Of a stretch of DNA of 32,238 nt, positions 9,475 through 31,191 are shown piece by piece. The translations under genes were made by a program, and so were the position numbers. Positions within the stretch are counted from its first letter, which is position 1, and each line of letters starts with the position of its first letter. The DNA comes from Pseudomonadota bacterium (lineage in GTDB: Bacteria > Pseudomonadota > Gammaproteobacteria > Steroidobacterales > Steroidobacteraceae), in NCBI GenBank assembly GCA_041180705.1, contig JBEGRA010000155.1:1-32238 (forward strand), written 5' to 3'. The notes beneath the pieces are model-generated. The model saw only the letters and a list, made by a program, of their open reading frames with translations. It did not search any database and was not told where the DNA came from.

Positions 9475-9766
9475 TCTATTTGAACAACAAGCTGAATAAC
9501 CGCCTCATTTCAGATTTCTGGACGAACCGCCCCCACATCTTCCCCACTTTGCGTCGGTCACTACTAAGTCAGCTACGTCCGCCTAGCCGGCAAGGCTCCA
9601 TAAGACGCCCAGTTTGGAAGGCGGCCCCCCCAACCGAGGACCAGCGAGTGAGTATCGCGCCGCGATCCAAGTCACGCGTGCAGCCCAAAGCCTCCTCGGA
9701 TCGATCAATCAAACGGCAGCGTGTTCTCGGCGCTCGCGCGTCGTTAGTCGCTCGACGAAAGCAGGT

Positions 9767-11380
9767 TCAGCCGGCATCCTCCAGGATCATTTCCGCTGCA
9801 CGTTCACCGATCAGGATGCAGGGGGCATTGGTGTTGGTCGAGACCATGGTTGGCATGATCGACGCATCAGCCACCCGCAATCCCTGAAGGCCACGCACGC
9901 GCAGGCGCGGGTCAACCACTGCGTCAGGATCACTGCCCATCCGGCAGGTGCTGATCGGGTGCCACGAAGTTTGCCCGGTTTCCCGCGCATAGGCGAGCAG
10001 GGCTTCGTCGGATATCACGTCTGGGCCAGGCAGCAGTTCGCGCACGACGTGCCCTTCCGGCCCCATTTTTGCAGCTACGTCGCGGATCAGGCGCAGACCT
10101 GAAATGGTATCGCGCTGATCCTGGGAGTGTTGGAGATAATTGGCCACGATCACGGGTGGCTTTCGTGGATCCGCAGAGGCGATATGCACCGATCCGCGCG
10201 AGAGCGGGCGGATCTGGAAAGTCCCCAGTGTCATGCCCGGGCAACTATCTGTCCCCTTGCCGTTGCCGCTGTAGCGATCCGCGCCGCTCATCATGGCAAT
10301 CTGGATCTTGGTATCGGCGGTCTCGCTGTCTGGACGGGATTTCATGATGGCGTGCGAGACAACGGTTGAGGTAGCGAACAGGCCTTTGCGGGTAACGAGA
10401 TATTTCAGCAGTTCGAAGGCACCATGCAACGGGCTGCCGAGAATGTCGTTGACTGTCCGCTCGCCCTCTACTTCGAAGGACATCCGCACCTGCAGGTGGT
10501 CGTGGAGGTTCTCCCCGACCTGCGCCAGTGCATGGTGCGGCGTCACCCCGGCGGCAGCCAGGATGGCTGGGTTGCCGACCCCGGACCGTTCAAGGATCGC
10601 CGGCGATTCGATCGAACCCGCGCACAGGATCACTTCACGCCGCGCACGGACCCGTTTTCGCATGCCGCCATGCAGATAGGCAACGCCGGTGCACCGCGTG
10701 CCATCAAAGGTCAGCGTGTCGGCCAAGGCCCCTGTCAACAGGGTGAGATTGCGGCGCCGCTTGGCCGGCCTCAGGTAGCCGACCGCGGTTGAACAACGGC
10801 GGCCCTTGCGGATCGACATTTGCAGATCGGCGACACCGACATTGTCAACGGCGTTATAGTCTTCAAGCGGCTGTGCCCCGAGCGCTTCGCAGGCCTGCTT
10901 GAAAGCCTCGGACACTGCCGAGCGATGCGCCACATTGGTGACAGTGATCGGCCCGTTCTGACCGCGAAAGGCCGGGTCGCCGCCCGCACGATGCTCCATG
11001 CGGCGAAAGCTGGGCAAGATATCGTTATAGCCCCACCCCTCGCACCCCAAGTCGCGCCACTCGTCCCAGCTGGCCTTGGAACCGCGGACGAACACCATGC
11101 CGTTGACGGAGCTGGAGCCGCCGAGCAGGCGGCCCTTGGGCCAATAGACCGGCTTGTGCGGAGGATCTTGGGTCTCTTCGGTAAAGTACTGCCAGACATA
11201 GCGGGGATCGGTGAGTATCTTGCCTACACCGAGCGGCACATGAATCCAAAGACCCCGGTCTACTTCACCGGCTTCGAGCAGCAGCACCTTCAGGTCTGGA
11301 CGCTCGCTCAGACGTGCCGCAACGACTGCACCCGATGAGCCTGCGCCAATCACCACATAGTCGTATTCATCCTGGCTCAT
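9767..11380 (-). CDS. GMC-family FAD oxidoreductase (choline-dehydrogenase-like)
   Basis: [26 protein letters not shown] (FAD fold), [15 protein letters not shown]-terminal HPISTCRMG and [17 protein letters not shown]. The ORF's first start is a TTG at 11398; the ATG at 11380 is preferred. Confidence 0.88.
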
Positions 11381-11401
11381 TCGCGACCCGTATTTCAAAA
11401 C

Positions 11402-12253
11402 CTATCCCGCGAATACCACTGTCTTGCGCCCATTGAGCAACACCCGGTGTTGCAAATGGTACCGCACCGCCCGCGCCAGTACCCTCCGCTCCACGTCACG
11501 ACCAAGCCGGACCAGATCGTCAGGCGAGTCGGCATGCGTGATCGCCTCTGCGTCCTGGTGAATGATCGGCCCTTCATCCAGATCGCCGGTCACATAATGG
11601 GCGGTGGCACCGATCATCTTGACCCCTCGTGCATGCGCCTGATGATAGGGCTTCGCGCCCTTGAAACTGGGCAGGAAGCTGTGATGAATGTTGATGCAGC
11701 GCCCGCTGTGAAACCCGGCCATCTCATCCGAAAGGATCTGCATGTAGCGCGCGAGCACGATCAGATCGGCACCGCTTTCCTCAATGAGCGTCCGGATTGC
11801 GGCTTCTTGCGCCGGTTTGGTCGCCGGCGTGACGGGCAGATAATGAAAGGGCACATCGCCCAGGATGGTGATGTTGAGAACCTCCTTCGGATGGTTGCAG
11901 ACCACCCCGACGACATCCATCGCGAGGTCACCCGTTCGGCTGCGATAGAGCAGATCGCCAAGGCAGTGATCGAATTTGGACACGAGCAAAAGCACGCGCG
12001 CACGCCGGTCACTGGGCGCCAGCTTCCAGTCCAGCTCGATTTCAGCGGCAATCGCTCCTAGCGCGGTAACCAGATTCGCTTCAGCGGCATTCGTTTCGAA
12101 AACGACCCGCATAAAGAACATGCCGGTCTCGCAATCGCCAAACTGGCTCGAATCAAGAATGTTGCCGCCATTGTCGAGAATCATCCCGCTCACACGTTGC
12201 ACGATTCCCGGCCGGTCGGGGCATGTGATTGTCAGGGTAAACGATTGCGACAT
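11402..12253 (-). CDS. purU: Formyltetrahydrofolate deformylase
   Basis: 283 aa. N-terminal ACT domain ([26 protein letters not shown]) and the formyltransferase motif [20 protein letters not shown]. Lies directly downstream of soxG, as in many sox clusters. Confidence 0.92.
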
Positions 12254-12328
12254 GAGAAAGTCCTTGAAGAATAGGTGCCTGCGATCAGTCGGAACGCAGC
12301 ACTCACGACTGCGAGCTAACGTCGGGCG

Positions 12329-12883
12329 TCAGATCAGACTGGCTTGCGCGGCAAGTGAGAGCATGGCCTGATGAAGGTGGTGCACGGCAGTGCGCGACAG
12401 GCTCTGCAGGACCATGATTTCAAAACCTTGCGCGATCGGGGTGATGATCGCGGGCATGTCTGCCAGCGGCGCACGGGCGGTTTGGCCGATTCCGAAGCGT
12501 TCGGTCCGCAGATCAAGCGGGCAGTACCGCGCAAGCACCTCCGCCGCGCCCGCACCGACCAGATGCATCACCGCCCAGGCGTCGCCCTGGTCGGTGAGAG
12601 CCGCAAATTCTGGAAGCGAAGGGGCTGCAGGCGTTGCACCAATCAGCAGATATTGATCGGTACCGAACCACAACAGCCGATGGTCTGCCGCCGCAGTCAC
12701 CTTGCCGACTTCGGGCAGAGTAAGCCCATGGCTCGCCTGAAGCGCCTTGGCCAGAGCCGAAGACTTGCCCTGGCGTGCCTGGATCGAACTGATGAAAGCC
12801 GGCGCAGCTTCGGTCAATGTCACTTGCCCGGCGCTTCGCGGAAGCAGCCCGGAAAGCGGGCTCTTTGCGACCAGATCAACCAT
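12329..12883 (-). CDS. soxG: Sarcosine oxidase subunit gamma
   Basis: The ATG at 12883 overlaps the soxA stop (ATGGTTGA), indicating translational coupling. Size ~184 aa and position after soxA fit SoxG. Confidence 0.82.
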   Translation of the reverse strand: MVDLVAKSPLSGLLPRSAGQVTLTEAAPAFISSIQARQGKSSALAKALQASHGLTLPEVGKVTAAADHRLLWFGTDQYLLIGATPAAPSLPEFAALTDQGDAWAVMHLVGAGAAEVLARYCPLDLRTERFGIGQTARAPLADMPAIITPIAQGFEIMVLQSLSRTAVHHLHQAMLSLAAQASLI

Positions 12884-15815
12884 GCAGCCTCTCCCCGTCC
12901 GGATCGACATGCACCATCGCACAAACCTCGCAGACAGCCTCGATGCCGCGGGCATTGTCTTTCATGATGATATGTTCGCCCAGCCTCGATCGGCCGTCCC
13001 TGAGGAAAGCCATTGCGATGACATGATCCAGCGAGGGCGAATGGCAATGGCTTGTCACATGGCCTTCCTCGTTGCCGAGCACCTGCCTTGCCCCCTGGCT
13101 GAACAGGAATGCCCCACCGCTGAACTGCTTGAGCGGCGACACCGGTTTCAACCCGATCAGTTCCATCTTGCCCGGACCGACCAGTGCCGAACGCTGGCTC
13201 AAAACCTTGCCGATACAATCCTTCTTGGCCGAGACCATGCCCCCGATCCCCAGAGCATCGGCGGTGTACTGGCCAGTCATCTCGGCGTGGGTGAGGTAGC
13301 CCTTCTCAATCCGAAGCGCGTTGAGCGCCTCCAGCCCGTACCAGCCGCCGCCAAGCGCCGCCGCTCGCTGGCCGAGTTCCCGCGCCAGGGCCTCGCCATA
13401 ACGCGCCGGAATGGCGATTTCATAGCTTCGCTCGCCAGAGAACGAGATACGGAACAACCTGCAGCCAATCCCGCCGATTGTCACCTCGGCGCATGCCATA
13501 TACGGGATGCGTTCGTTCGATATGTCCTCGTCGCACAACCCACTCACCAATTCGCGCGATCGCGGCCCGGCAATCGAGAACTGCGCCCACTGGTCGGTGA
13601 CCGAGAAGAATTGCACGTCGAGTTCTGGCCGCAGCACCTGCGTGCAGAATTCGAGATGGGCGAACACATCGCTGGCGGCCCCTGCGGTGGTCGTCAGCAC
13701 AAAGTGATCCTCGCCAAGCCGCGCGCAGGTCCCGTCGTCGAGCGCCATGCCGTCTTCGCGCAGCATCACCCCATAGCGGACCCGGCCCTGCTTGAGGCTG
13801 GACATGGTGTTGGCGTAGACGAGGTCGAGCAAAACTGCGGCATCCGCACCCTGCACGTCGATCTTGCCGAAGGGCGTGATGTCGGTGATCCCCACGGTCG
13901 AGCGCACCATGCGCATTTCCCGGTCGCAGGTTTGCCGCCAATGGGTTTCGCCGGGCTGCGGAAACAGGCTCGGCCTATACCAGACGCCCATTTCGATGAA
14001 ATGCGCTCCCAGTTCGCGCGCCAATGCATCGGACGGCAGGTAGCGCGATGGCGCGAAATCCTTGCCCGCACCGTGCGCGCCCAGGGCCCCCAGAGCTACG
14101 GGGGAATAGGGTGGGCGGAAGGTTGTCGTGCCGGTTTCGGGGATCGAGCGCTGAGTAAGGTCGGCCATGACCGCCAGCCCGCCGACGTTCGAAGTCTTGC
14201 CCTGGTCGGTCGCCATGCCCAGCGTGGTGTAACGCTTCATGTGTTCGACCGAACGGAAGTTCTCACGGTGGGCCAGCGCGACATCCTTGGTCGTCACATC
14301 GTTTTGCAGGTCAAGCCAGGCGCGGCCCTTGCTGCCTGTGACATGCCAGAACGGCTCAAGCCGGATCGGGGCATCTTCGGCTGCGGGAATGACGGTGGCG
14401 GGCGCCGTCTTTCCAAGATCGCCCAGCACCTCCGCCGCAGCCTCCGCTCCAGCGGAAAGCGCGGCGTGGGTGGAGAAATCACCGTTTGCAGCGCCGGCTA
14501 CCCGCATCCCCGGAATGGCATTGTCGGCCGGAACGAAAGCGGCAATGTCCTCACGCCAGACCGGACGGCCGTTCATGTGGCAAGTGAGATGCACCGACGG
14601 GTTCCAGCCACCGCTGACCGCGAGACAGTCTGTGGCCACCTTCAGCGTTCCCGAGGCTCTGCTGACCGTGATTGATTTCAGGCCGAGGCGGCCTGAGGTC
14701 CCGGTGACCTGCCCCCCGGTGATCAGCGGATAGTCGCCCATCGCCACCACATCGCTGCGGGTATCGACGACCGTGGCGATATCCGCACCGAGCCGCAGCA
14801 GATCAAGCGCGGTACGGTGGCCATCATCGTTGTTGGTGAACAGGCTGATCCGCTGCCCCGGCAACACGGCGAAGCGGTTGGCATAGCTGCGCACCGCGCT
14901 CGCCATCATCACTCCTGGGCGATCGTTGTTCGCAAAGGCGATCGGCCGTTCGATCGCGCCGCCGGCCAGGATCGTCCGCCGTGCCGCGATCCGCCAGAAT
15001 GTCTCGAGCGGAAGATGGTCCGCCGGATCGGCAAGATGATGCGAAACCCGCTGCAACGCCGCATAGGTGCCGCCATCATAGGCGCCGGTCACCGTGGTAC
15101 GCGGCATCAGGCGGACATTGGCCATGCCCGCCAGTTCGGCCGCCACTTGCGCGGCCCACCCAGCCCCGGGTTGACCGGCAATTTCGACGGTTTCGGAGTT
15201 GAGGCGGCCGCCAAAAGCAAAATCCTCGTCGGCAAGGATGACATCGAGCCCGCCGCGTGCCCCAGTCAGCGCAGCCATCAGTCCGGCGGGCCCGCCGCCG
15301 ATCACCAGAAGGTCGCAGTGGGCAAATGCCTTGTCGTAGAGCGCCCGATCGGCCTTGCCGCTGAGCCGCCCGAGTCCGGCGGCACGGCGGATGAAGGGTT
15401 CATAGACCTTCTCCCAGAACGACTTGGGCCACATGAAGGTCTTGTAGTAAAAGCCCGCGCCGAAGAACGGTGCCATCAGATCGTTCACGCTCAGCAGATC
15501 AAAAGCGAGCGACGGAAAGCGGTTCTGCGAAGCAGCGATCAAGCCTTCGTAAAGCTCTTGGGTCGTAGCGCGCACATTCGGCGTAGTCTGGTCGCCCAGC
15601 CCGAGTTGCATCAGCGCATTGGGCTCTTCGGAACCGGCGGAGAGGATCCCGCGCGGGCGGTGATATTTGAAGCTGCGCCCGACCAGACGGATATCGTTGG
15701 CCAGCAGGGCAGAGGCGAGCGTATCGCCCTTGAATCCGGCAAGGCTCTTGCCATCGAAGCTGAACCTGAGCGGCTGGGTGCGATCGATCTGACCGCCGGA
15801 TGTCAGGCGGCTCAT
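12876..15815 (-). CDS. soxA: Sarcosine oxidase subunit alpha
   Basis: ~979 aa from the ATG at 15815, which overlaps the soxD stop (ATGA). RFSFDGKSLAGFKGDTLASALLANDIRLVGRSFKYHRPRGI, dinucleotide fold DLLVIGGGPAGLMAAL, and a C-terminal aminomethyltransferase-like folate domain. Confidence 0.93.
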   Translation of the reverse strand: MSRLTSGGQIDRTQPLRFSFDGKSLAGFKGDTLASALLANDIRLVGRSFKYHRPRGILSAGSEEPNALMQLGLGDQTTPNVRATTQELYEGLIAASQNRFPSLAFDLLSVNDLMAPFFGAGFYYKTFMWPKSFWEKVYEPFIRRAAGLGRLSGKADRALYDKAFAHCDLLVIGGGPAGLMAALTGARGGLDVILADEDFAFGGRLNSETVEIAGQPGAGWAAQVAAELAGMANVRLMPRTTVTGAYDGGTYAALQRVSHHLADPADHLPLETFWRIAARRTILAGGAIERPIAFANNDRPGVMMASAVRSYANRFAVLPGQRISLFTNNDDGHRTALDLLRLGADIATVVDTRSDVVAMGDYPLITGGQVTGTSGRLGLKSITVSRASGTLKVATDCLAVSGGWNPSVHLTCHMNGRPVWREDIAAFVPADNAIPGMRVAGAANGDFSTHAALSAGAEAAAEVLGDLGKTAPATVIPAAEDAPIRLEPFWHVTGSKGRAWLDLQNDVTTKDVALAHRENFRSVEHMKRYTTLGMATDQGKTSNVGGLAVMADLTQRSIPETGTTTFRPPYSPVALGALGAHGAGKDFAPSRYLPSDALARELGAHFIEMGVWYRPSLFPQPGETHWRQTCDREMRMVRSTVGITDITPFGKIDVQGADAAVLLDLVYANTMSSLKQGRVRYGVMLREDGMALDDGTCARLGEDHFVLTTTAGAASDVFAHLEFCTQVLRPELDVQFFSVTDQWAQFSIAGPRSRELVSGLCDEDISNERIPYMACAEVTIGGIGCRLFRISFSGERSYEIAIPARYGEALARELGQRAAALGGGWYGLEALNALRIEKGYLTHAEMTGQYTADALGIGGMVSAKKDCIGKVLSQRSALVGPGKMELIGLKPVSPLKQFSGGAFLFSQGARQVLGNEEGHVTSHCHSPSLDHVIAMAFLRDGRSRLGEHIIMKDNARGIEAVCEVCAMVHVDPDGERLHG

Positions 15816-16084
15816 TTCGCACCTCGCTTCACGTCGGCGGCCAGGCGGGTCGAGGCAAATTCGTGCGAGCCCATGTTCCGTTCGGCGACGATCCAGGACC
15901 GGCACCCCATTTCGTGCAGCCACAATTCGCGGTGCGCGCCGGCGGGGTTCTCACGAAAATAGACATATTCGACAAAGGCCTGTTCGCCCGCATCGGGCGC
16001 AGGCCGGTCCATCAGTACCGCCGTGCCGAGATACTGGAACTCGCGCCGGTCGCGGCTGCCGCAGTTGGGACAATCAATACGCAT
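15812..16084 (-). CDS. soxD: Sarcosine oxidase subunit delta
   Basis: 90 aa. MRIDCPNCGSRDRREFQYLG zinc-ribbon start typical of SoxD, located between soxB and soxA. Confidence 0.9.
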   Translation of the reverse strand: MRIDCPNCGSRDRREFQYLGTAVLMDRPAPDAGEQAFVEYVYFRENPAGAHRELWLHEMGCRSWIVAERNMGSHEFASTRLAADVKRGAK

Positions 16085-16096
16085 GGTTCGTCCCCA

Positions 16097-17347: not shown

Positions 17348-17523
17348 CTTCTATCCTGAGCCTCTGCGGCCATGGCTGTCTAAATCGAGCGCCGACCCGA
17401 TAGAAATACGACGAATCGCTCCACCCATCCGATCACAAATGTCGGTCCGGTTCTCCGCCCCCCTGAAAAACCAAGGGAGCGGAGCGAGACAATTTGAGCC
17501 GGTTACAATTCTTGCACCGTTGC

Positions 17524-19782: not shown

Positions 19783-19870
19783 TCTACGCTCCCTTATAGG
19801 CCAATGGCATGGCTGCTACTTGTTCGCCTCCACGCGATCGGCCTTGACTGTCCGTTCGCTGCAGACGGAA

Positions 19871-22291: not shown

Positions 22292-22503
22292 CGAGGATCC
22301 ATTTCACGCTTGGCAGGCGGTTCCACCATGTCTCAATGTTCTCCCTGAACAGGCAACCTATGGCAGGTCCGGGGATATAAATTGTGATTATGCGTCATTT
22401 TATTGTATTAAGGCGACAAACGGTTTGCCTGTGTGATGCAAGTGCAAGTCGCGGCGACGCACCTCATTCGCATGTTGCGGCGCCCTGTCAGCCCAGCAGA
22501 TGC

Positions 22504-23622: not shown

Positions 23623-23790
23623 AGAACCGCGCCCCCTCCACTCAACCGCATCTTGACCGAGGAATTCGACCATGATCGCGATGGACGGGTGGCTAGTCAC
23701 GCCCAGTTGTCTTGTATTGTCGTTTGGTGACACGCTCTTGCTTAACTGCGCCAGACTCATGGCCGCGACAGCCTTTGGCGGGGCGCGACA

Positions 23791-24810
23791 TCAATGCTGC
23801 TCTTCGTTTCGGCAGTTCTTTCGCCAATCGCCCGGTGTCACCCCGTACCAGCGTTTGAAGGCATGGTTGAATGTGCTCTGTTCACGGTACCCAAGGTGAT
23901 AGGCGATCGTGGACAGCTGCAGGTTTCCATCTTCGAGCAATTCGGTAGCCATCATTTTGCGCGTGTCTTCCAGCAGCTTTTCGTAGGTCATTCCTTCGCG
24001 CGAAAGGCGGCGCTGCAGGGTTCGCTTGTTCGAACAGATCTGGTCGGCAATGATCTCGATCGAGAACTGCCCCGTCGGCAAAAATCGGCGGATCAGGCTG
24101 CGGACATTGTCCGGCAGGTTCTTCCTGCCCCAACCGGTTTGCTCGCCCAGTACCGAGGTTACCAGGGCCAGAACATCGTGATCTTCATTGCGGTTCTTGG
24201 CCTGCAGAACCTCGTCGGAAAACTCGATGCCGTCGATCTCGGTATCAAACTCCGGCACCATGCCGAAATACTCGGCATATTTCCGGATCGGGCTGATTGG
24301 AGAGTGCTTGAAGCGGACGGAACCCGGCGTGAAACTGTTGCCGATGAAAATCCGCGCGACCTTCAAGGTCGTCAGCAGCGATTCCTCAACCCACTGGTTT
24401 GATATCGGCCGGAGCGCCTCGTTGAGGAAAAACTGATAGATGAACGACCCGTCCATATCGACGATATCGGCCTCGTATGCCCCGGCAACATGCACGGACG
24501 AGTACCGTTTGATCTCTAGCAGCGCAGTCTGGAAGTCCGGCGCATACTTCAGGATCAGATTGAGCGGCCCGAAAAAGGCGAAATCGCGCGAACGGGCCAG
24601 TTCCAGCCCGAAACTGGGCAGGTTCGCTTCACGCGCCGCCAGTTCATAGCAGGCCAGAATTCCCCGGAATGGTACCCATCGTTCGGGATCGTGAGCGGGA
24701 TTGAAGCCGATGCCGGCCTTGGCGAGGATTGCGGCCGGATCAACGCCACGGCGCGCCACCGCTTCGGTGAGGCCCAGCAAGGCCCGGCTGCGCCCTAACG
24801 GTTCGGTCAC
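23791..24810 (-). CDS. AraC-family transcriptional regulator (Arabinose_bd-type N-terminal domain)
   Basis: C-terminal HTH LSTIAYHLGYREQSTFNHAFKRWYGVTPGDWR. The GTG at 24810 is preceded by GAAGGA; the longest ORF start is at 24900. Divergent from the aminotransferase gene. Confidence 0.85.
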   Translation of the reverse strand: MTEPLGRSRALLGLTEAVARRGVDPAAILAKAGIGFNPAHDPERWVPFRGILACYELAAREANLPSFGLELARSRDFAFFGPLNLILKYAPDFQTALLEIKRYSSVHVAGAYEADIVDMDGSFIYQFFLNEALRPISNQWVEESLLTTLKVARIFIGNSFTPGSVRFKHSPISPIRKYAEYFGMVPEFDTEIDGIEFSDEVLQAKNRNEDHDVLALVTSVLGEQTGWGRKNLPDNVRSLIRRFLPTGQFSIEIIADQICSNKRTLQRRLSREGMTYEKLLEDTRKMMATELLEDGNLQLSTIAYHLGYREQSTFNHAFKRWYGVTPGDWRKNCRNEEQH

Positions 24811-24958
24811 TCTGAATCCTTCTTTACGGCTAGCGCATACTATCAATTGAGTGGCACGAAAAGGCAATACGATCGACTGTCCGGCGTTAATCTGGGCCAT
24901 GGCGGAAAGCGCTGATCAATTCGTCTGCCAGCGAAGGTCCGGGGAGTTAGGAACAGCC
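24811..24958. promoter_or_regulatory. Divergent intergenic control region between the AraC gene and the class-III aminotransferase gene
   Basis: 148-bp gap between divergent starts. Contains two copies of ATCAATT (24842-24848 and 24915-24921), the first inside a CAATTG palindrome. No promoter hexamers could be assigned with confidence. Confidence 0.35.
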
Positions 24959-26248
24959 ATGGAAACCAAGGGTCGCGATCACATCGAAGCGGTAACGCGC
25001 GACCACATCAATTCCGGCAAGATCGACCTGTTCAAGCAGATCGGTGTCAACCTGATCATGGGTGAGCGATCAGGCTGTGACGTATATGATATCTCGGGCG
25101 CGAAATACCTTGACGTGTTGTGCGATGGTTCGACCTACAATTTCGGACACCGCAATCCAGAGATCATCGATACGCTCAAGGCAGCCCTCGACCGGGTCGA
25201 TATCGGTTGCCAGTTTCTGGCTTCGAGAGAGCGAGCGCTACTGGCCAAAGACATCGTCCGCACCAGCCCCGAGGGGCTGAGCTATGTCCATTTCATTGCC
25301 AGCGGCAGTGAGGCCAACGACGCCGCGATCAAGGCTGCGCGCTTCGCCACCGGGCGGCGCAAGATCGTTTCCATTGCCAAGAGCTTCCACGGCGTAACGG
25401 GACTGGCGGCCAATGCCAGCGACAAGGCTTTCTGGCAGCCCTTCAATGCTGGCCGGAACTCCGACGATTTCGTGACAGTCGCTTGGAACGATCTGGGGCA
25501 GATGGCCGATGCGTTGGCCGGTGAAGACGTCGCCGCGGTGCTGATCGAAACGGTGCCGGCGACGCTGGGCTGGCCGATCCCGGCGGATGACTATCACGCT
25601 GGGGTCAAGGCGCTGTGCGAGCGCCACGGCGCATTGCTGATCATGGATGAAATCCAGACCGGCCTGGGGCGAAGCGGCCACCTGTGGGGGCTTGAGCGCT
25701 GGGGCGCCCGGCCCGACATCATGGTGGTAGCCAAGGGCATCGGCGGCGGGATCTATCCCTTTGCATATCTGGCCATGACCGAACGGGCAGCATCCTGGAC
25801 GCGCGAAGCTCCGCTTGCCATGCCATCGACCTTCGGCGGCAGCGAGCTGGGCTGCGTTGTCGCGCGCAAGGTGCTGGCACTGGCAAGCGCCGACGCCACC
25901 CTTGCCCACGTGCGGGAAATGGCCGCGCTGCTGGGTGCAGGCTTCGACCGGCTCAAGGCCCGGTTCCCCGAGCAGCTGTTGGAGGTTCGCCAGCTCGGCC
26001 TCGCCGCGGGGCTCAAATTTGCCGATCCGGCGGGCGGTGTAAAGATGATGCGATCGCTGTTCCGCCACGGTGTGCTGGCCCTGTTCGCGGGTTACGATCC
26101 TTCGGTCGTCCAGCTGAAACCACCGCTGGTCATAACCGCCGCGCAGATTGGCCAGCTGCTCGATGCGCTCGCCAAGGCGATCGCCGAAATGGATGAACCG
26201 CTGCCATTCACGCAAGGCATGGGCGCGCTGGATGCGCTGCATTCCTGA
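24959..26248 (+). CDS. Class-III (ornithine/GABA/putrescine-type) PLP aminotransferase
   Basis: The ATG at 24959 follows AGGA. FIASGSEANDAAIKAAR, MDEIQTGLGRSG, PLP lysine in DIMVVAKGIGGG. ~429 aa. Confidence 0.88.
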   Translation: METKGRDHIEAVTRDHINSGKIDLFKQIGVNLIMGERSGCDVYDISGAKYLDVLCDGSTYNFGHRNPEIIDTLKAALDRVDIGCQFLASRERALLAKDIVRTSPEGLSYVHFIASGSEANDAAIKAARFATGRRKIVSIAKSFHGVTGLAANASDKAFWQPFNAGRNSDDFVTVAWNDLGQMADALAGEDVAAVLIETVPATLGWPIPADDYHAGVKALCERHGALLIMDEIQTGLGRSGHLWGLERWGARPDIMVVAKGIGGGIYPFAYLAMTERAASWTREAPLAMPSTFGGSELGCVVARKVLALASADATLAHVREMAALLGAGFDRLKARFPEQLLEVRQLGLAAGLKFADPAGGVKMMRSLFRHGVLALFAGYDPSVVQLKPPLVITAAQIGQLLDALAKAIAEMDEPLPFTQGMGALDALHS

Positions 26249-26259
26249 CCGCGCGCGCC
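26177..26259. repeat. 83-bp direct repeat, copy 1 (authentic 3' end of the aminotransferase gene plus 11 nt downstream)
   Basis: Aligns base-for-base with 27247-27329 (offset 1070). I count 7 mismatches, all transitions. Encodes AIAEMDEPLPFTQGMGALDALHS-stop. Confidence 0.9.
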
Positions 26260-26511
26260 ACCCGGTCTGGGCCGCCACTTGTCGATCCTCGCCGCACAAA
26301 AGCTGCAGGAATAGGCGGTGGAATTGGCAGGCGACTACGCAGCTTTAAACCAGTTTGTGGCGCACCAGCCGGGCAGCAATATCCCGCCCATCGGGCCAGA
26401 GGCCGCCCTGACCGGGGTGCCCAGCTATTTCAACGGCAGGGCCGCGTCCAATTAAGGGAGGGGGAGGCCAATGAAATTCTGCACGGGATCATCGCCCAGT
26501 TGGTTCTGAGC

Positions 26512-27159
26512 CTATATAGGCGCGCGTTGTCCTTGGGGGCGGTTGGCGATTTCCCGCGCGCGTGCGGCTGCAAAGCCGGGGCGATCTTTCAGCCGGGCGT
26601 ACCAGCCTTGGGTCAGCGGCCCCAATTCCGCATCATAGCCAAAGCTGGCGCTCAGGTGGACGGCATAGCCCACGCAGACATCCGCGATCGTAAAGCGCCC
26701 ACCAGTCAGCCAATCACGGCCGTCTGCCAGCGCCTCTTCAATGCTCTTGGCGCGGCCTATGAAGAACCCTTTATAATCCGCCACAGCCTGCGGCAGTTGA
26801 CGCGCGTTCGGTTCCAACCGGGTGTAGCGCAGCACGATCGTCAGCGGAAAGGTCAGCGTCGCATCACTGCGGTGCAGCCAGTTGAGAAAGGACAGGTATT
26901 CGCTTTCTTCGGCGCGGATTTCCAGCGCGGTGCCCTGCGCGATCCGTTGGCAGATGGCGGCGCTTTCGGTCAGCAAATGGCCATTTTCTACCCAAGCGGG
27001 GATCGTGCCTAAGGGGTTGATGTCCTTAAATTGCTTGGCAAACCAGCGGGGCGGGAAGGGCCACATTTTTAAATCAAGGTCAAAGCCCGTTTCTTCGGCG
27101 GCCCAAAGGCAGCGAAAGGATCGGGCGCCTTCGCAATGGTGCAAAATGGGCAGGGCCAC
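26512..27159 (-). CDS. Glutathione S-transferase family protein
   Basis: The GTG at 27159 is preceded by AGGA. ALPILHHCEGARSFRCLWAAEETGFDLDLKMWPFPP...INPLGTIPAWVENGHLLTESAAICQRI (thioredoxin-like N-domain), then a helical C-domain. The 314-aa track ORF is this gene plus read-through into repeat copy 2. Confidence 0.85.
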   Translation of the reverse strand: MALPILHHCEGARSFRCLWAAEETGFDLDLKMWPFPPRWFAKQFKDINPLGTIPAWVENGHLLTESAAICQRIAQGTALEIRAEESEYLSFLNWLHRSDATLTFPLTIVLRYTRLEPNARQLPQAVADYKGFFIGRAKSIEEALADGRDWLTGGRFTIADVCVGYAVHLSASFGYDAELGPLTQGWYARLKDRPGFAAARAREIANRPQGQRAPI

Positions 27160-27246
27160 GGCGTCAGTTCCTAGGGTTGGGCAATAGCAGGGCGGTGGTC
27201 GCGCCACGCAAATTACAGGCCTCCTGCAATGATGATGGGCGTGCTT

Positions 27247-27329
27247 GCGATCGCCGAAATGGATGAACCACTGCCATTCGCGCAAGACATGGGCGCGCTG
27301 AATGCGCTGCATTCCTAATCGCGCGCACC
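27247..27329. repeat. 83-bp direct repeat, copy 2 (orphan 3' fragment of an aminotransferase gene)
   Basis: Encodes AIAEMDEPLPFAQDMGALNALHS-stop with no gene body upstream (only MMMGVL in frame). ~92% identical to 26177-26259. Confidence 0.9.
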
Positions 27330-27344
27330 CGATCAGGAATGCAG
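27307..27344 (-). terminator. Stem-loop immediately downstream of the Dabb gene (10-bp perfect stem, 18-nt loop)
   Basis: CTGCATTCCT (27307-27316) is the exact reverse complement of AGGAATGCAG (27335-27344). It begins 5 nt after the Dabb stop (27350-27352). There is no clear U-tract, so it may be a processing or stabilising hairpin rather than an intrinsic terminator. Confidence 0.45.
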
Positions 27345-27349
27345 TCAGA

Positions 27350-27640
27350 TCAAACCGTGTAGTGAACCCTTGCCACGGCTTCTCCCAGGGGAACAAATTG
27401 CTGCGCGAAGGCAATGTGATCGGGATGACCGGCGTAGCCGCGCATTGCAGCCTCATCCGCGAAATCGATCACCAGGGCATAGTCCCAAGTCCCTTCCATC
27501 AGCTTCAGGTTCGGACCGAACTCGAAACGGTGGATACCGGGAACAACGCTTGAAATCGCGGCAAAACCCTCGCCAACCCGGACGATGTCTTCGGCGGTGA
27601 CTTCGGGTTTGAATTTCACCATCGTGATCTGTCGGATCAT
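27350..27640 (-). CDS. Dabb (stress-responsive alpha/beta-barrel, dimeric) family protein
   Basis: 96 aa. MIRQITMVKFKPEVTAEDI...FEFGPNL...WDYALVIDFADEAAMRGYAGHPDHIAF fits the Dabb pattern. GGAGAG lies 10 nt-scale upstream, directly after the aminotransferase stop. Confidence 0.85.
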   Translation of the reverse strand: MIRQITMVKFKPEVTAEDIVRVGEGFAAISSVVPGIHRFEFGPNLKLMEGTWDYALVIDFADEAAMRGYAGHPDHIAFAQQFVPLGEAVARVHYTV

Positions 27641-27650
27641 GTCACTCTCC

Positions 27651-29015
27651 TCAGGCGACGCTCTTGAGCGCCTTGGTAACCGCGGCGGCGATGCGGTCGA
27701 TCTCGTCGCGGGTCACCACCAGCGGCGGGGCAATCAGCAGGATGTTGCAGCGCCCGGGCACGGTGTTGGTATTGCGACCCAGGATCACCCCATCACCCCT
27801 GCAACTTGCCAGGATCTGCATGATCTTGGCTTCGCCGAGCGGCACCTTGCTCTCGCGGTCTTCGACCAGTTCGATTCCCGTGAGCATGCCCAGCCCGCGA
27901 ATCTCACCGACATGGGGGTGCTGGCCCAATTCGCGGCCCAGCACATCGCGCACATGGTCGCCCTGCTCACGGGCATTGCCCGCCAGACCTTCGCGCTCCA
28001 CGATCGCGATCGCCTCCAGCGCGATCGCCGCGCCAACCGGATGACCGCCGAACGTGTTGATCTGGCGCAAGTGTCGCATGCTGTCCGACGCGCCGTCGAA
28101 GCCGGTGAAGACATGGTCCTTCACCACCGTCGCGCCCATCGGGAAGTAACCGCTCGAAAGCCCCTTGGCGAAAGTGTAAATATCCGCCTCGGTCGCCCAG
28201 TGCTCATAACCGAACATGGTCCCGAGCCGGCCGAAACCGGAGACGACCTCGTCGAAGATCAGCAAGACGCCGTACCGATCGCAGATCTGGCGGACCAGCG
28301 GCAGGTAATTGTCCGGGGGCACGATAACCCCGCCGCCCGACATCATCGGCTCCATGATCACCGCAGCCACCGTATTGGCGCCTTCGTGGATGATTGCCTC
28401 TTCAAGCAGGCGGGCGCACTCTGCGCCGTGTTCCAGCGTGCTCAGCTTGGGATGGGCGCGGAACGGGTAGGGCGGCATGACGTGCACGAAGCCCGCCGGT
28501 CCAGGCTCCGATCCGGTCTTGCGCTCGGCCTGGCCGGTGGCAGCCATCGCGCCGGCCGTGTTGCCGTGATAGGCCCGATAGCGTGAGATGATCTTGTAGC
28601 GGTTGTCGCCGGGCTTACCGTTCTGCAGATGATACTGCCGGGCAATCTTGAATGCGGCTTCATTGGCTTCCGAACCGCTCGACGAAAAATAGCTGTGGCA
28701 CTTGAAGCCCAGCATTGTCTTCATCTTTTCGGCAAGCGCCAGCGTGGGCTCACAGGCCATGACCGGCGCCAGGTAGTTGAGTTGCTCCATTTGCCGCGCA
28801 GCGATTTCACCGATCTCGCGCCGGCCATATCCGATGTTGACGCACCACAGTCCGGCCAGACCGTCGAGCAGCTGCGCACCATTGTTCATGGTCAGCGTGC
28901 AGCCCTTGGCAGACTGCATCTGCGGCGGCGTGGTTCCTCGCAGCGCAGCGTGCTGGGTCAGCGGACGCCATAGTTGGTCGGGATAATCGGCGGTCATGCT
29001 TTGCGCGCTGTCCAT
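27651..29015 (-). CDS. Class-III omega-aminotransferase (omega-amino acid:pyruvate / taurine:pyruvate-like subgroup)
   Basis: 454 aa. GLWCVNIGYGRREI, SSGSEANEAAFKIARQYH, ISRYRAYHGNT, ATGQAERK, FDEVVSGFGRLG, PLP lysine in IYTFAKGLSSGY, NTFGGHP. The start lies 11 nt after the ThDP gene stop, with AGGAA in between. Confidence 0.9.
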   Translation of the reverse strand: MDSAQSMTADYPDQLWRPLTQHAALRGTTPPQMQSAKGCTLTMNNGAQLLDGLAGLWCVNIGYGRREIGEIAARQMEQLNYLAPVMACEPTLALAEKMKTMLGFKCHSYFSSSGSEANEAAFKIARQYHLQNGKPGDNRYKIISRYRAYHGNTAGAMAATGQAERKTGSEPGPAGFVHVMPPYPFRAHPKLSTLEHGAECARLLEEAIIHEGANTVAAVIMEPMMSGGGVIVPPDNYLPLVRQICDRYGVLLIFDEVVSGFGRLGTMFGYEHWATEADIYTFAKGLSSGYFPMGATVVKDHVFTGFDGASDSMRHLRQINTFGGHPVGAAIALEAIAIVEREGLAGNAREQGDHVRDVLGRELGQHPHVGEIRGLGMLTGIELVEDRESKVPLGEAKIMQILASCRGDGVILGRNTNTVPGRCNILLIAPPLVVTRDEIDRIAAAVTKALKSVA

Positions 29016-29026
29016 TGGCTGTTCCT

Positions 29027-30775
29027 TTATTCCGCCGCGGTCCTGACCCGCATTTCGATCATGCCCTGTGTCAGTGGCGATTTGACCCCTTGAGTCACCA
29101 CGTCGACGAAGGACGAGATATTCTGGTTGTTGTGCAAGGCGCGCTCGATTGCCGAGCGCAGCTGCGAAGCATCATCGACGCGCTCGGCATAGGCACCGCC
29201 GCCAGAAAAGATCTTGCTGTAATCCATCTTGCGCAGGCTGGTTGCGACGACTTCGCCCCACATTTCCTTCTGCTGTTCCTGGATCATGCCCCACTGCGCA
29301 TTGTTGGCGACAAGCAGTGTAACCGGCGCGTTATGGTCGATCGACGTCTCAAGCGGGGTAACCCCCGGCGAGAGCCCGAGCGAACCGTCACCCGTCACCA
29401 GAACCACGCGCGATTCCGGCGAGGCCATCTTGACCGCAGTGGCATAGGCCGGACCGGTTCCCATCTGCTCCCACGGACCGGGGTTGATGATCGCCTTGAT
29501 CTTCTTGCCTTCAAGCGCCCAGATGCTGAGCGCGGTCTCGAACCAGCAGGCGATGTCGCCGCCGTCGATCACCATGATGTCCTTTTCGCCAAGCGACGAC
29601 AAAGCCTGGTAGCACAGCGCCACAGGGTGGATTGCCCCTTCGCTGGCATCGAGGTGCGGGCGATATTGTTCGACGCTTTCGCGCCGGCGCTCGCGGATGG
29701 AGGCGGGCCAGTCGGCACCGACCGACATGAGGCCTTCTTCAGCCTCCAGCGCTTTGAACAGCATCTTGATGTCGCTGCAGATGCGCGTATCCACCAGCAT
29801 GTTGTCACTCAGTTCACGCGGCGTGGGATTGACCGCGACCATGTGCAAACCAAGCCCAAACAGCGGCGCCTCACCAAAGTTGAGCGGGAAGTCGAGCCGG
29901 CCACCCAGGAACAGCACCAGGTCCACCTCGTCCATCAGGCAGCGTGAACACGGGTTCTGGTGATAGTCGACGATTCCCATGTTGTTGGGATGCGACATGT
30001 CATAGGTCTTGAGATGGGTTGTAGGCACAAAGATCGGCACGTTGTAGCGGGTCGAGAAGTCCTCCATCTCGCGCTCGGCATGCGCGAACCAGACCCCGGG
30101 TCCGGCGATGATGATCGGCTTTTTCGCCTTTGCCAGTAGATTCTTCAGCTCGGCCACGTCGTCAGGATTGGGTGCGGGCTTGTGCACCTTGTGGCGCTTT
30201 GTATCGAACTTGCGTGCGCCTTCGCGCTGCTCGAGACGGATCTTGCCCGAGAACAGGAAGTTGGTCGGGATAACCAGCTGCACCGGCCCGGTCGGCTGGT
30301 TGACGCAGATGTCATAGGCCTTGTCGAAGAACCAGCCGATCCGCTCCGGCGCGTTCACCTCGATCGCATATTTGGTCATGCAGCGGACGACTTCGGCCTG
30401 GGGCATTTCCTTGAAGCCCGCATTGTCGAAATTGTTGGTGTTCGAAGAGGCGCTGATGAAGATCACCGGATCGCCGACGTAGTAGGCTTCGGCCACTGCC
30501 GAGACATAGTTGGTGAAGCCGCTCGGTTCTGCAAGGCAAACGGTTGGCTCGCGCGTCAGCCGGGCATGGGCAGCCGCCATGAAGCCGGCCTCGAGCTCGT
30601 TACGGCAGCCGATGACTTCGATGCCGTATTCCGCGCAGCCCATGTAAATCGGATTGATGAACCCGCCGCACAGCGAATAGACGCGCTTGATCCCCTTGTC
30701 CGCCATGGCCTTGGCGAGCAGCGTTCCGCCGCTGATCTTGCCGCTAAGCGCCTTCTTGGTGTTTGCCGCATCCAT
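29027..30775 (-). CDS. Thiamine-diphosphate-dependent enzyme (acetolactate synthase / oxalyl-CoA decarboxylase / sulfoacetaldehyde acetyltransferase superfamily), specificity unknown
   Basis: ~582 aa from the ATG at 30775 (GGAGA upstream). N-terminal Pyr domain with catalytic Glu context CRNELEAGFMAAAHARL. ThDP motif VTGDGSLGLSPG...LLVANNAQWG (GDG-x-NN). Confidence 0.88.
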   Translation of the reverse strand: MDAANTKKALSGKISGGTLLAKAMADKGIKRVYSLCGGFINPIYMGCAEYGIEVIGCRNELEAGFMAAAHARLTREPTVCLAEPSGFTNYVSAVAEAYYVGDPVIFISASSNTNNFDNAGFKEMPQAEVVRCMTKYAIEVNAPERIGWFFDKAYDICVNQPTGPVQLVIPTNFLFSGKIRLEQREGARKFDTKRHKVHKPAPNPDDVAELKNLLAKAKKPIIIAGPGVWFAHAEREMEDFSTRYNVPIFVPTTHLKTYDMSHPNNMGIVDYHQNPCSRCLMDEVDLVLFLGGRLDFPLNFGEAPLFGLGLHMVAVNPTPRELSDNMLVDTRICSDIKMLFKALEAEEGLMSVGADWPASIRERRRESVEQYRPHLDASEGAIHPVALCYQALSSLGEKDIMVIDGGDIACWFETALSIWALEGKKIKAIINPGPWEQMGTGPAYATAVKMASPESRVVLVTGDGSLGLSPGVTPLETSIDHNAPVTLLVANNAQWGMIQEQQKEMWGEVVATSLRKMDYSKIFSGGGAYAERVDDASQLRSAIERALHNNQNISSFVDVVTQGVKSPLTQGMIEMRVRTAAE

Positions 30776-30998
30776 CCCGAGATCTCCAAGCTGTCCTGGT
30801 TTTTGCCTTTTCCGGATCTCACTATCGCCCGCAGCGATCAACGGACACCGGACCAAGGAATCGTCAGCAAAGGTAGGAAGCGACCCGACTCCCCGTATTA
30901 TGAATGCGCGCCAAAGGTTTGCTTTTAGACGCCAAGAACATTGGCAGCGCCATCAGTAGTTAGCCGAAGGGGAAACGCGGATGATTGACCGATTGGAG

Positions 30999-31012
30999 CC
31001 GGCTATAGCCGG
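30999..31012. promoter_or_regulatory. Perfect 14-bp palindrome CCGGCTATAGCCGG upstream of the ThDP operon
   Basis: Read directly from the sequence. Lies ~225 bp upstream of the start at 30775 and ~30 bp inside the right edge of the inserted block. Confidence 0.25.
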
Positions 31013-31041
31013 AAAGGCGATAGCTCAAGTAACGATGTCAG

Positions 31042-31191
31042 TTAGCTGCGGAACTCGGCTTCACCGGCTGCCGCTGCCACCGTGGCAGCAGGCTTCGCGA
31101 CCGGCTTGGTGGCGGCACTGGCAGCAGGGGCCAACAGCGCGGTGGAAAGTAGCGTGCTGGCGAGCAACAGCGGAGCGGCATGGCGCTTCAT
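31042..31191 (-). pseudogene. M20 metallopeptidase, 5' part (signal peptide and first ~49 codons), terminated by a TAA at the block boundary
   Basis: The ATG at 31191 is preceded by AAGGA. MKRHAAPLLLASTLLSTALLAPAASAATKPVAKPAATVAAAAGEAEFRS-stop is a Sec signal with an ASA-A site. The ...AEFR ending resembles the region just before the conserved N-terminal helix of secreted M20 peptidases. GC-rich sequence ends at ~31045. Confidence 0.65.

What the first reader, a model, noticed from the sequence alone, without database searches (positions are those of the whole stretch)
9475..31043. A ~21.6-kb catabolic gene block sits inside an M20 peptidase gene, with no integrase, transposase or terminal repeats
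- **3' half:** the minus-strand ORF at 8185-9426 is an M20 peptidase body that starts mid-protein. Its frame stays open to 9504, but host-like GC-rich sequence stops at about 9474, where the text turns into tctatttgaacaacaagctgaataac.
- **5' half:** about 21.6 kb away on the same strand, 31191-31045 encodes a Sec signal peptide plus about 25 further residues ending ...GEAEFRS. A TAA (31044-31042) follows exactly where the sequence style changes again.
- **Geometry:** 5' half at high coordinates, 3' half at low coordinates, both on the minus strand. This is what a simple insertion into one gene would give.
- **Contents:** the 16 genes inside (15 on the minus strand) are all transport, catabolism or regulation. 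I find no recombinase, tRNA, inverted terminal repeat or convincing target duplication.
- **Possible deletion:** from my memory of this family's N-termini (..FR-x-IY-x-ELVE-x-NTT-x-S-x-G-x-CT-x-AA-x-M-x-RL..), roughly 8 codons may be missing at the joint. That would point to illegitimate or homology-facilitated recombination rather than transposition.
Basis: partly seen in the sequence, partly recalled or inferred. Interest (0 to 1): 0.75.

Follow-up and report, generated by a model that had tools for sequence, protein, structure and literature searches.

The report
Catabolic gene block splitting a peptidase gene
A 21.6-kb block of borrowed nutrient-degradation genes was spliced into the middle of a secreted peptidase gene by a cut-and-paste accident at tiny sequence matches rather than by any mobile-element enzyme; this is a well-documented example of a known but rarely caught route of gene transfer.

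Summary
Intact 464-485-aa M20 peptidases (83-87% identical) align across both window fragments, and relatives have AspH-M20 adjacent with no block.

- **Empty site in the same species.** One contig is 98-100% identical to the window backbone and carries an intact M20.
- **Not an assembly artefact.** Both junctions recur at 99.8-99.9% identity in separately assembled contigs. The right one comes from two datasets, the left from one.
- **The block is foreign.** It is 60.8% GC against 66% for the host, with a distinct tetranucleotide signature.
- **It occurs elsewhere.** Copies at 92-99.4% identity lie in unrelated 53-57% GC contexts, beside a tyrosine integrase with TrbC, an IS66 remnant or a serine recombinase. 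A more distant copy (82% DNA) lies beside an IS3.
- **The junctions are not element ends.** Those copies continue past the window's breakpoints. Each junction shows a microhomology (CAGC on the left, TCCGCC on the right), and 36 nt (12 codons) of M20 are missing.

Best explanation: double illegitimate, microhomology-mediated recombination of a donor fragment, with no transposase or integrase involved. The divergent M20 allele suggests the disrupted locus may then have spread by homologous recombination.

The right boundary is 9454-9460, not 9474. This is a new member of a known kind, of moderate interest.

The parts
8185..9459 (-). 3' fragment of the M20/PRK09133-family peptidase gene. Homology to intact alleles starts at codon 62, and an ORF from an internal ATG runs 9426-8185. 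It has no signal peptide and lacks the first ~61 codons.
   Evidence: It is 80-85% identical in DNA to the L001, L002 and L003 alleles.
9454..9459 (-). Right-junction microhomology TCCGCC (minus strand). It is shared by the end of the donor-type sequence (L091: ...CCCGCTCCGCC|ATTTTC) and by intact M20 alleles (...CGGTCCGCC|GGCAAG).
9460..31044 (-). Inserted foreign block, 21,585 nt excluding the two microhomologies (21,595 nt as 9454-31048). It holds 16 genes and is 60.8% GC.
   Evidence: composition. (92-99.4% identical copies in other contexts).
9767..11380 (-). GMC-family (choline-dehydrogenase-like) oxidoreductase. It is the last gene of the block.
   Evidence: PRK02106, 510 bits, below the 605 cutoff.
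11402..12253 (-). Formyltetrahydrofolate deformylase PurU.
   Evidence: TIGR00655, 324 bits against a 286 cutoff.
12329..17347 (-). Heterotetrameric sarcosine-oxidase-family N-demethylase genes: soxG-like 12329-12955 (longest ORF), soxA 12876-15815, soxD 15812-16084, soxB 16097-17347.
   Evidence: SoxB 634 bits against 529; SoxA 1272 against 1164; Pfam SoxD.
17524..22291 (-). Uptake and export genes: TonB-dependent receptor 17524-19782, MFS transporter 19981-21240, YeiH-family (PF03601) membrane protein 21221-22291.
22504..23622 (-). Alanine dehydrogenase gene with an in-frame amber codon (TAG at 23194-23196; CAG in copy L183). Probably a pseudogene.
23791..24900 (-). AraC-family regulator (QhpR-like, below cutoff).
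24959..26248 (+). Class-III aminotransferase, the only plus-strand gene of the block.
26271..27243 (-). GST-gene segment (GST ORF about 26512-27150). It is absent from all 10 other block copies examined and is bracketed by an 83-nt direct repeat (26177-26259 and 27247-27329, 92% identical).
27350..30775 (-). Dabb-domain protein 27350-27640, class-III aminotransferase 27651-29015, and a thiamine-diphosphate enzyme 29027-30775 that is not Xsc.
31045..31048 (-). Left-junction microhomology CAGC (minus strand). It is shared by donor copies (...GATGTGCCAGC|TAACTG) and by M20 (...TTCCGCAGC|CTCTAC).
31042..31191 (-). 5' fragment of the M20 gene: start codon, Sec-type signal peptide and codons up to S49 (31191-31045). 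It is closed by a TAA (31044-31042) supplied by the inserted DNA.
31237..32238 (-). AspH-like (Asp/Asn beta-hydroxylase plus SEC-C motif) gene. It is the conserved upstream neighbour of M20 and is cut by the window end.

Best explanation
**What happened.** A linear piece of foreign DNA about 21.6 kb long was joined into the 5' part of a chromosomal M20 peptidase gene. The piece was cut out of a longer, lower-GC, mobile-element-rich donor region that carries a catabolic gene cluster. The joining was two illegitimate (microhomology-mediated) events. No enzyme encoded by the block took part.

**The two joints.**
- Left joint: formed at CAGC.
- Right joint: formed at TCCGCC.
- The 36 nt of M20 between them (codons 50-61, LYKELVEVEST(L/R)) were lost.

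**Consequences for the gene.**
- The peptidase is split into a 49-codon signal-peptide stub, ended by a donor TAA, and a 5'-truncated body. It is most probably inactivated.
- All but one of the block's genes (15 of 16) are co-oriented with M20.

**What the block encodes.** It looks like uptake and degradation of an N-methylated amine or osmolyte. It has a TonB receptor, MFS and YeiH-type transporters, two omega-aminotransferases, a ThDP enzyme, a SoxBDAG-type demethylase with PurU, a GMC oxidoreductase and an AraC regulator. The substrate is not identified.

**Shown versus inferred.**
- Shown: the split, the empty sites, the foreign composition, the other contexts, and the sequence overlaps at both joints.
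- Inferred: the direction donor to host at the right joint; the exact pre-insertion allele; how the DNA entered the cell (transformation or conjugation); and a later spread of the disrupted allele by homologous recombination.
For: **1. One gene, split.** Intact homologues span both fragments with a 12-codon gap and no overlap.

**2. Empty sites.**
- L001, L003 and L171-L174 have AspH directly followed by an intact M20.
- L002 is 98-100% identical to window 1925-8300 and has an intact 485-aa M20.

**3. Junctions are real.** L086, L089 and L090 are separate contigs that reproduce the junctions at 99.8-99.9% identity. The right junction comes from JGI 3300043446 and SRR35185457. The left junction comes from JGI 3300043446 only.

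**4. Foreign composition.** 60.8% against 66% GC, and the tetranucleotide profile switches at both joints.

**5. Left joint is not an element end.**
- Donor-type copies L175, L176 and L181 (98%) and L182 (99.3%) match the block up to window 31048.
- They then share a further 56 nt (...GGGATGTGC|CAGC TAACTG...) in two unrelated contexts.
- So the window's left end lies inside donor sequence.

**6. Right joint.** L091 (99.4% over 7.9 kb) matches up to 9454, then continues as ATTTTCATTTTG..., an IS66 TnpA remnant, DoxX and an ion-channel gene, all at about 56-57% GC.

**7. Microhomologies.**
- The overlaps between donor and M20 sequence are exactly 4 nt and 6 nt.
- Random joining gives P(>=4) = 0.005 and P(>=6) = 0.0004.

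**8. No mobility features.** No integrase, transposase, tRNA, inverted repeats or target duplication in the window.

**9. Known mechanism.** Integration of foreign DNA by double illegitimate recombination at microhomologies is established experimentally in Acinetobacter baylyi. The reference is Hulter & Wackernagel 2008, Mol Microbiol 67:984, as cited in PMC10291446. See also bioRxiv 10.1101/2023.11.22.568220.
Against: - **Allele not sampled.** The recipient's own pre-insertion M20 allele is not in the databases; the best intact relatives are 86-87% identical in protein. The microhomology lengths are therefore read from seven related alleles, all with CAG(C/T) and TC(C/T)GC(C/T/G).
- **Right joint rests on one contig.**
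  - Only L091 shows the other context there.
  - The 18 nt before the joint match R-type M20 alleles at 13/18.
  - So L091 could in principle derive from a window-type arrangement that was then hit by an IS66-associated event.
- **Unexplained base.** One base next to the right joint differs from every allele (CGC instead of GGC).
- **Size.** 21.6 kb may be large for this route compared with laboratory events (my recollection, not checked here).
- **Possible two-step history.** The window's M20 fragments are only about 80-85% identical to the same-species L002 allele. The insertion may have happened in another lineage and been imported with its flanks.
Confidence: 0.7

Rival explanations
1. The block arrived as part of an integrative element (genomic island or ICE), inserted by a site-specific tyrosine or serine recombinase. 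The recombinase module was later deleted, and the deletion took 36 nt of M20 with it.
For: - Near-identical copies sit about 1 kb from a P4-type tyrosine integrase, next to TrbC (L175, L176, L181).
- A 92% copy sits beside a DUF3489-DUF2924-large serine recombinase module (L092).
Against: - The window's left end lies 56 nt inside sequence shared by two different donor contexts, so it is not an att end.
- There is no att-like repeat and no tRNA.
- Two independent clean deletions ending exactly at microhomologies would be needed.
- Integrase-mediated insertion does not delete target DNA (established knowledge).
Confidence: 0.1
2. The block was carried in by an IS-flanked composite transposon, or by one-ended or IS-adjacent transposition. 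The IS copies were later lost.
For: - IS3-family genes lie next to a 90% relative of the ThDP-enzyme gene (L087).
- An IS66 TnpA remnant starts about 100 nt beyond the right breakpoint in L091.
Against: - The window has no IS remnant, inverted repeat or target-site duplication.
- Target DNA was lost, not duplicated.
- The IS positions in L087 and L091 do not coincide with the window's ends.
Confidence: 0.08
3. The insertion into M20 happened in a different, related lineage. The window's organism acquired the already disrupted locus (M20 3' fragment, block, M20 5' fragment, AspH) by ordinary homologous recombination through flanking homology. This concerns arrival in this genome and is compatible with the best explanation for the original event.
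For: - Identity to the same-species contig L002 is 98-100% from 1925 to about 8300.
- It then drops to 78-90% within the last ~200 nt of M20 and stays low through the M20 fragment and AspH (84%).
- This is the pattern of a recombination tract boundary.
Against: - The tract could equally be in L002, which has three extra genes between AspH and M20.
- No third same-species genome is available to polarise the change.
- The left boundary lies outside the window.
Confidence: 0.4
4. The arrangement is an assembly chimera, or the small ORF and the peptidase are genuinely separate genes.
For: None found beyond the a priori possibility for metagenome-derived sequence.
Against: - Three other contigs reproduce the junctions with a few mismatches, so they are separate assemblies of close strains. 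The right junction is seen in two datasets and the left in one.
- All relatives encode one continuous 464-485-aa protein.
Confidence: 0.02

Closest known systems
Double illegitimate recombination / microhomology-mediated integration of foreign DNA (Hulter & Wackernagel 2008, Acinetobacter baylyi; related to SPDIR, Harms et al. 2016)
   Same: - Foreign DNA is joined at both ends through short microhomologies (4 and 6 nt here).
- A short stretch of recipient DNA is lost.
- No recombinase, repeats or duplication are involved.
- The donor sequence continues past the joints in its original context.
   Different: - This is a natural event inferred from metagenome sequence, not a selected laboratory transformant.
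- The insert is 21.6 kb, which I recall as much larger than the laboratory inserts (not checked here).
- The route of DNA entry and the enzymes involved are unknown.
Homology-facilitated illegitimate recombination (de Vries & Wackernagel 2002; my knowledge)
   Same: - Illegitimate joining at a microhomology, with loss of some recipient DNA.
- The internal GST segment, with its 83-nt duplicated anchor, resembles this pattern.
   Different: For the main insertion, no homologous anchor between donor flanks and the host was found. Both ends look illegitimate.
Integrase-borne genomic islands and ICEs
   Same: - A compositionally deviant block of accessory catabolic genes, variably present among close relatives.
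- Sister copies lie next to integrase, TrbC, IS and serine-recombinase genes.
   Different: - The copy in the window has no integrase, att repeats or tRNA target.
- Its ends are internal to the donor sequence.
- It deleted target DNA.
Sarcosine-oxidase-type (SoxBDAG) N-demethylation clusters with PurU, and taurine/sulfoacetaldehyde (Tpa-Ald-Xsc-TauZ) clusters
   Same: - SoxB and SoxA pass NCBIfam cutoffs, and PurU is present.
- An aminotransferase, alanine dehydrogenase, ThDP enzyme and YeiH-type exporter mimic the taurine layout.
   Different: - The ThDP enzyme fails the Xsc model (189 bits against a 676 cutoff).
- No pta or sulfite dehydrogenase is present.
- ald is broken.
- The substrate remains unknown.

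Membership tests
Microhomology-mediated double illegitimate recombination insertion | Short sequence identity shared by donor and recipient exactly at each joint | tested here: met
   CAGC at 31048-31045 and TCCGCC at 9459-9454. Chance is 0.005 and 0.0004. The recipient allele is inferred from seven relatives.
Microhomology-mediated double illegitimate recombination insertion | Donor sequence continues beyond the joints in its original context, so the joints are not element termini | tested here: met
   Left: L175-type and L182 share 56 nt more. Right: L091 continues into unrelated DNA of about 56-57% GC. The right joint rests on one contig only.
Microhomology-mediated double illegitimate recombination insertion | Loss (not duplication) of recipient DNA at the target | tested here: met
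   Codons 50-61 (36 nt) of M20 are missing relative to all intact alleles.
Microhomology-mediated double illegitimate recombination insertion | Independence from RecA-type homology and from element-encoded enzymes, shown experimentally | not testable with these tools
   This needs genetics in the host or a model recipient.
Homology-facilitated illegitimate recombination | A homologous anchor segment on one side of the insert | tested here: not met
   blastn of donor flanks (L175, L182, L091, L092, L087) against the host parts of the window found nothing.
Integrase-mediated genomic island / ICE | Integrase gene within the element | tested here: not met
   All 16 block proteins have metabolic, transport or regulatory domains.
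Integrase-mediated genomic island / ICE | Direct att repeats at both ends, often a tRNA/tmRNA target | tested here: not met
   No terminal direct repeats. No tRNA or tmRNA. No Rfam hit.
Composite or unit transposon | Terminal inverted repeats or flanking IS copies, and a target-site duplication | tested here: not met
   No inverted repeat pair joins the two ends. The end segments have no plasmid-database matches. The target shows a deletion instead of a duplication.
M20 peptidase subfamily PRK09133 | Full-length match to the family profile in one ORF | tested here: not met
   The 3' fragment matches profile positions 66-472 of 474 (575 bits). The N-terminal 49 codons lie 21.6 kb away. It is a disrupted member.
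Sulfoacetaldehyde acetyltransferase (Xsc) taurine pathway | ThDP enzyme reaching the TIGR03457 equivalog cutoff | tested here: not met
   188.6 bits against a 676.4 cutoff.
Heterotetrameric sarcosine oxidase family | SoxB, SoxD, SoxA and SoxG subunit genes in one operon | tested here: met
   SoxB 634 bits (cutoff 529) and SoxA 1272 (cutoff 1164). SoxD and SoxG are below the NCBIfam cutoffs, but SoxD passes Pfam. Substrate specificity was not tested.

The most novel reading that the evidence does not exclude
The block is a widely circulating, self-contained catabolic module for an as yet unidentified N-methylated amine or sulfonate. It is built around a ThDP enzyme family that is neither Xsc nor acetolactate synthase. 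It can move between distantly related bacteria by enzyme-independent microhomology joining as well as on integrative elements. Under this reading, the AspH-M20 locus of this uncultured gammaproteobacterial lineage is a recurrent landing and recombination hotspot.
Probability: 0.2. Interest if true: 0.6.

Novelty: new member of a known kind. Interest (0 to 1): 0.4.

Why it matters
**Reconstructable natural case.** Enzyme-independent insertion of large foreign DNA has been shown in the laboratory. It is seldom reconstructable in nature, because donor context, empty site and product are rarely all available. Here all three are at hand, with base-level joints.

**Cargo can escape its vehicle.** Metabolic cargo normally carried next to integrases and IS elements became fixed in a chromosome with no mobility genes. 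Integrase-based island finders would miss such an island.

**Cost and gain.** The insertion inactivates a conserved secreted peptidase. It also delivers a 16-gene amine-catabolism module whose key ThDP enzyme and substrate are uncharacterised.

Tried and rejected
**Searches that found nothing**
- Terminal repeats, tRNA and Rfam families: nothing at the ends.
- Plasmid database with the whole block: only about 70-74% sarcosine-oxidase matches. With the two end segments: no match.
- Exact-protein look-ups of the M20 3' fragment and of PurU: not on record. I therefore could not get more right-end contexts.

**Ideas tested and dropped**
Only TCCGCC (perhaps CG(C/G)TCCGCC) matches M20 convincingly. 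A 13/18 match to R-type alleles keeps a small doubt.
- *L002 as a 96% relative throughout.* The mean hid a sharp boundary: 98-100% up to about 8300, then about 80-85%.
- *A degenerate copy of TTCCGCAGC... at 9475-9495 as a target duplication.* Those bases are part of the block in L091, so this is rejected.
- *The block as a taurine (Xsc) pathway.* The ThDP enzyme fails the Xsc model.
- *L087's IS3 or L083-85's GST as the natural left boundary.* Their intergenic regions share only a short promoter-like motif with the window.

**Host identity**
- The SpoT search gave only uncultured Gammaproteobacteria. The nearest named relatives are Steroidobacteraceae at about 70%.
- The 'Planktophila' label on L003 looks like a binning error.
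Full report
**1.

The window has 65-68% GC flanks and a 57-64% GC centre.

*The two M20 fragments*
- On the minus strand, 8185-9426 is an ORF with Peptidase_M20 and M20_dimer domains.
- It matches NCBIfam PRK09133 from profile position 66 to 472 of 474, so about 65 N-terminal positions are missing. Its frame stays open to 9504.
- 21.6 kb upstream on the same strand, 31191-31045 encodes a 49-residue signal-peptide stub ending GEAEFRS, followed by TAA.

*Comparison with intact homologues*
- I joined the two pieces and searched 5.8 billion proteins. This returned intact 464-485-aa homologues at 83-87% identity, up to 100% coverage.
- In the alignment they read ...AGE(t/a)AFRS-LYKELVEVEST(L/R)SAG-KCTEAAAAMRARLL.... 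The window's 5' piece stops at FRS and the 3' piece resumes around SA(G/R)KCT.
- The fragments therefore belong to one gene. They do not overlap, and only a dozen codons are missing.

**2. Empty sites exist, one of them in the same species**

- Contigs encoding the intact homologues have the window's gene order without the block. AspH(SEC-C) is directly followed by M20 in L001, L003 and L171-L174.
- L002 has M20, a 109-aa gene, CN_hydrolase, gmk, PIN/MazE, rpoZ and SpoT.
- L002 is 98-100% identical to window 1925-8300. It is effectively the same species, yet it carries an intact 485-aa M20.

**3. The junctions are not assembly artefacts**

| Contig | Source | Window span | Identity |
|---|---|---|---|
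| L086 | JGI 3300043446 | 31576-28975 | 99.92% |
| L090 | JGI 3300043446 | 12173-8493 | 99.89% |
| L089 | Logan SRR35185457 | 15455-8555 | 99.83% |

The few mismatches show they are separate assemblies of closely related strains. The right junction is seen in two datasets and the left junction in one. The insertion is therefore real and is shared by a small population.

**4. The block is foreign and circulates elsewhere**

*Composition.* The block is 60.8% GC against 65.9-66.4% for the host parts. Its tetranucleotide profile switches at both joints.

*Contents: 16 genes, 15 on the minus strand*
- Oxidation and C1 handling: a GMC oxidoreductase, PurU, and soxG, soxA, soxD, soxB.
- Transport: a TonB-dependent receptor, an MFS transporter and a YeiH-family protein.
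- Amine handling: alanine dehydrogenase with an amber codon, and two class-III aminotransferases (one on the plus strand).
- Others: an AraC regulator, a GST, a Dabb protein and a ThDP enzyme.
- There is no recombinase, tRNA, Rfam hit or terminal repeat.

*Other genomic contexts* (all in 53-57% GC surroundings where measured)

| Loci | Identity to block | Neighbouring sequence |
|---|---|---|
| L175, L176, L181 | 95-98% | P4-type tyrosine integrase, TrbC, RHS genes |
| L182 | 97-99.3% | PGA_cap, MFS, TonB receptor, GH3 genes |
| L091 | 99.4% over 7.9 kb | IS66 TnpA remnant, DoxX, ion-channel gene |
| L092 | 92% | DUF3489-DUF2924-large serine recombinase |
| L087 | 82% DNA (ThDP enzyme 90% aa) | IS3-family genes |
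| L083-L085 | about 76% | chromosomal C1-metabolism genes |

The block is a mobile cargo module. The window's copy has lost every associated mobility gene.

**5. Anatomy of the joints**

*Left joint*
- Donor copies in two unrelated contexts read ...CCTGGAGCGGGATGTGC CAGC TAACTGACATCG....
- Intact M20 alleles read ...TTCCG CAGC CTCTACAAG....
- The window reads ...GAGTTCCG CAGC TAACTGACATCG....
- L175-type and L182 share 56 nt beyond the breakpoint before they diverge from each other. The window's left end is therefore internal to donor sequence and is not an element terminus.

*Right joint*
- L091 reads ...GCGCCCTCCCGC TCCGCC ATTTTCATTTTG....
- M20 alleles read ...GAGTCCACACGG TCCGCC GGCAAGTGC....
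- The window reads ...GCGCCCTCCCGC TCCGCC CGCAAGTGT....

*What this adds up to*
- The overlaps are 4 nt and 6 nt. Random joining of these sequences gives at least 4 nt in 0.5% of trials and at least 6 nt in 0.04%.
- Between the two overlaps, M20 has lost CTCTACAAGGAACTGGTGGAAGTGGAGTCCACACGG, which is 36 nt or codons 50-61.
- The TAA that ends the stub comes from the donor.
- The insert is 9460-31044 (21,585 nt), or 9454-31048 counting both microhomologies.
The GC-rich stretch 9474-9454 belongs to the block, as L091 shows.

**6. Mechanism**

The evidence at the joints is:
- microhomology at both ends;
- a small deletion of target DNA;
- joints that lie inside longer donor sequence;
- no repeats and no recombinase.

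This is the signature of double illegitimate, microhomology-mediated recombination of a linear donor fragment. The process is established experimentally for natural transformation of Acinetobacter baylyi (Hulter & Wackernagel 2008, cited in PMC10291446). The related short-patch process is described in bioRxiv 10.1101/2023.11.22.568220. I put this at about 0.7.

Site-specific integration and IS-mediated transposition followed by loss of the enzyme genes are not excluded. Each would need several extra precise deletions, and each contradicts the internal position of the left joint.

No homologous anchor between donor flanks and the host was found. Classical homology-facilitated illegitimate recombination is therefore not supported for the main event.

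**7. A possible second step**

- Identity between the window and same-species L002 falls from 98-100% to 78-90% at about 8300-8430, inside the 3' end of M20. It stays low through the M20 fragment and AspH (84%).
- One possibility is that the M20::block allele was imported with its flanks from a relative about 82% identical, by homologous recombination.
- The other is that L002's side was replaced. L002 has three extra genes between AspH and M20.
- I cannot polarise this without a third genome (about 0.4 for import).

**8. Function of the block**

- SoxB and SoxA pass their NCBIfam cutoffs and PurU is an equivalog. This points to tetrahydrofolate-linked N-demethylation.
- The ThDP enzyme fails the Xsc model (189 against 676 bits) and every other model. 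The taurine-like layout (aminotransferase, Ald, ThDP enzyme, YeiH exporter) is a resemblance only.
- ald is inactivated by a C-to-T amber mutation here. It is broken differently in L183 and absent from several other copies.
- The substrate is unknown. My best guess is an N-methylated amine or amino alcohol taken up through the TonB receptor.

**9. Verdict**

It is a natural, well-resolved example of a known but rarely documented integration route, so I class it as a new member of a known kind and score interest 0.4.

The host is an uncultured gammaproteobacterium. Its SpoT is about 70% identical to Steroidobacteraceae.

Noticed in passing
window 23194-23196 (minus strand), within ald 22504-23622: The alanine dehydrogenase gene carries an in-frame TAG where copy L183 has CAG. 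L183's own ald is broken further downstream, and several other block copies lack ald and the YeiH-family gene altogether. The gene appears dispensable and is decaying independently in different copies.
   Followed up: yes
window 26177-26259 and 27247-27329; segment 26271-27243: An 83-nt direct repeat (92% identical) duplicates the 3' end of the plus-strand aminotransferase gene. It brackets a GST gene segment that is absent from all ten other block copies. This looks like a secondary insertion anchored on one side by homology.
   Followed up: partly
window about 8300-8430: Identity to the same-species contig L002 changes sharply here, from 98-100% to about 80-85%, inside the 3' end of M20. This marks a homologous-recombination tract boundary.
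   Followed up: partly
L002 1258-3377; L001 3595-6184 versus window 6257-7672: The neighbourhood is variable among relatives. L002 has three extra genes (including a Ni_hydr_CYTB cytochrome b) between AspH and M20. L001 has a periplasmic binding protein plus an M24 peptidase where the window and L002 have a CN_hydrolase gene.
   Followed up: no
window about 30885-30945 (minus strand), upstream of the ThDP-enzyme gene: A motif (TTGGCG...AAGCAA...CATAATAC) is conserved upstream of the ThDP-enzyme gene even in relatives at 76-92% DNA identity (L083-85, L087, L177). The rest of the intergenic region is not alignable. It is probably the AraC-type operator or promoter.
   Followed up: no
window about 4900-5588 (plus strand): A MazE-like antitoxin and PIN-domain toxin pair sits between gmk and rpoZ. 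It is conserved in L002 and in the P0005 contigs.
   Followed up: no
L178 1-214: In this 99.2% copy, homology to the block stops at window 30957. It is replaced by AT-richer sequence containing repeated palindromic CGTTTAAACGACA units, possibly a small mobile repeat inserted at the block's left edge.
   Followed up: no
L003 (CALQLF020000013.1): This contig carries the closest genome-collection M20 (89% aa) and the AspH-M20 synteny. It is ~64% GC yet is labelled Candidatus Planktophila lacus, an actinobacterium, which is probably a binning error.
   Followed up: no
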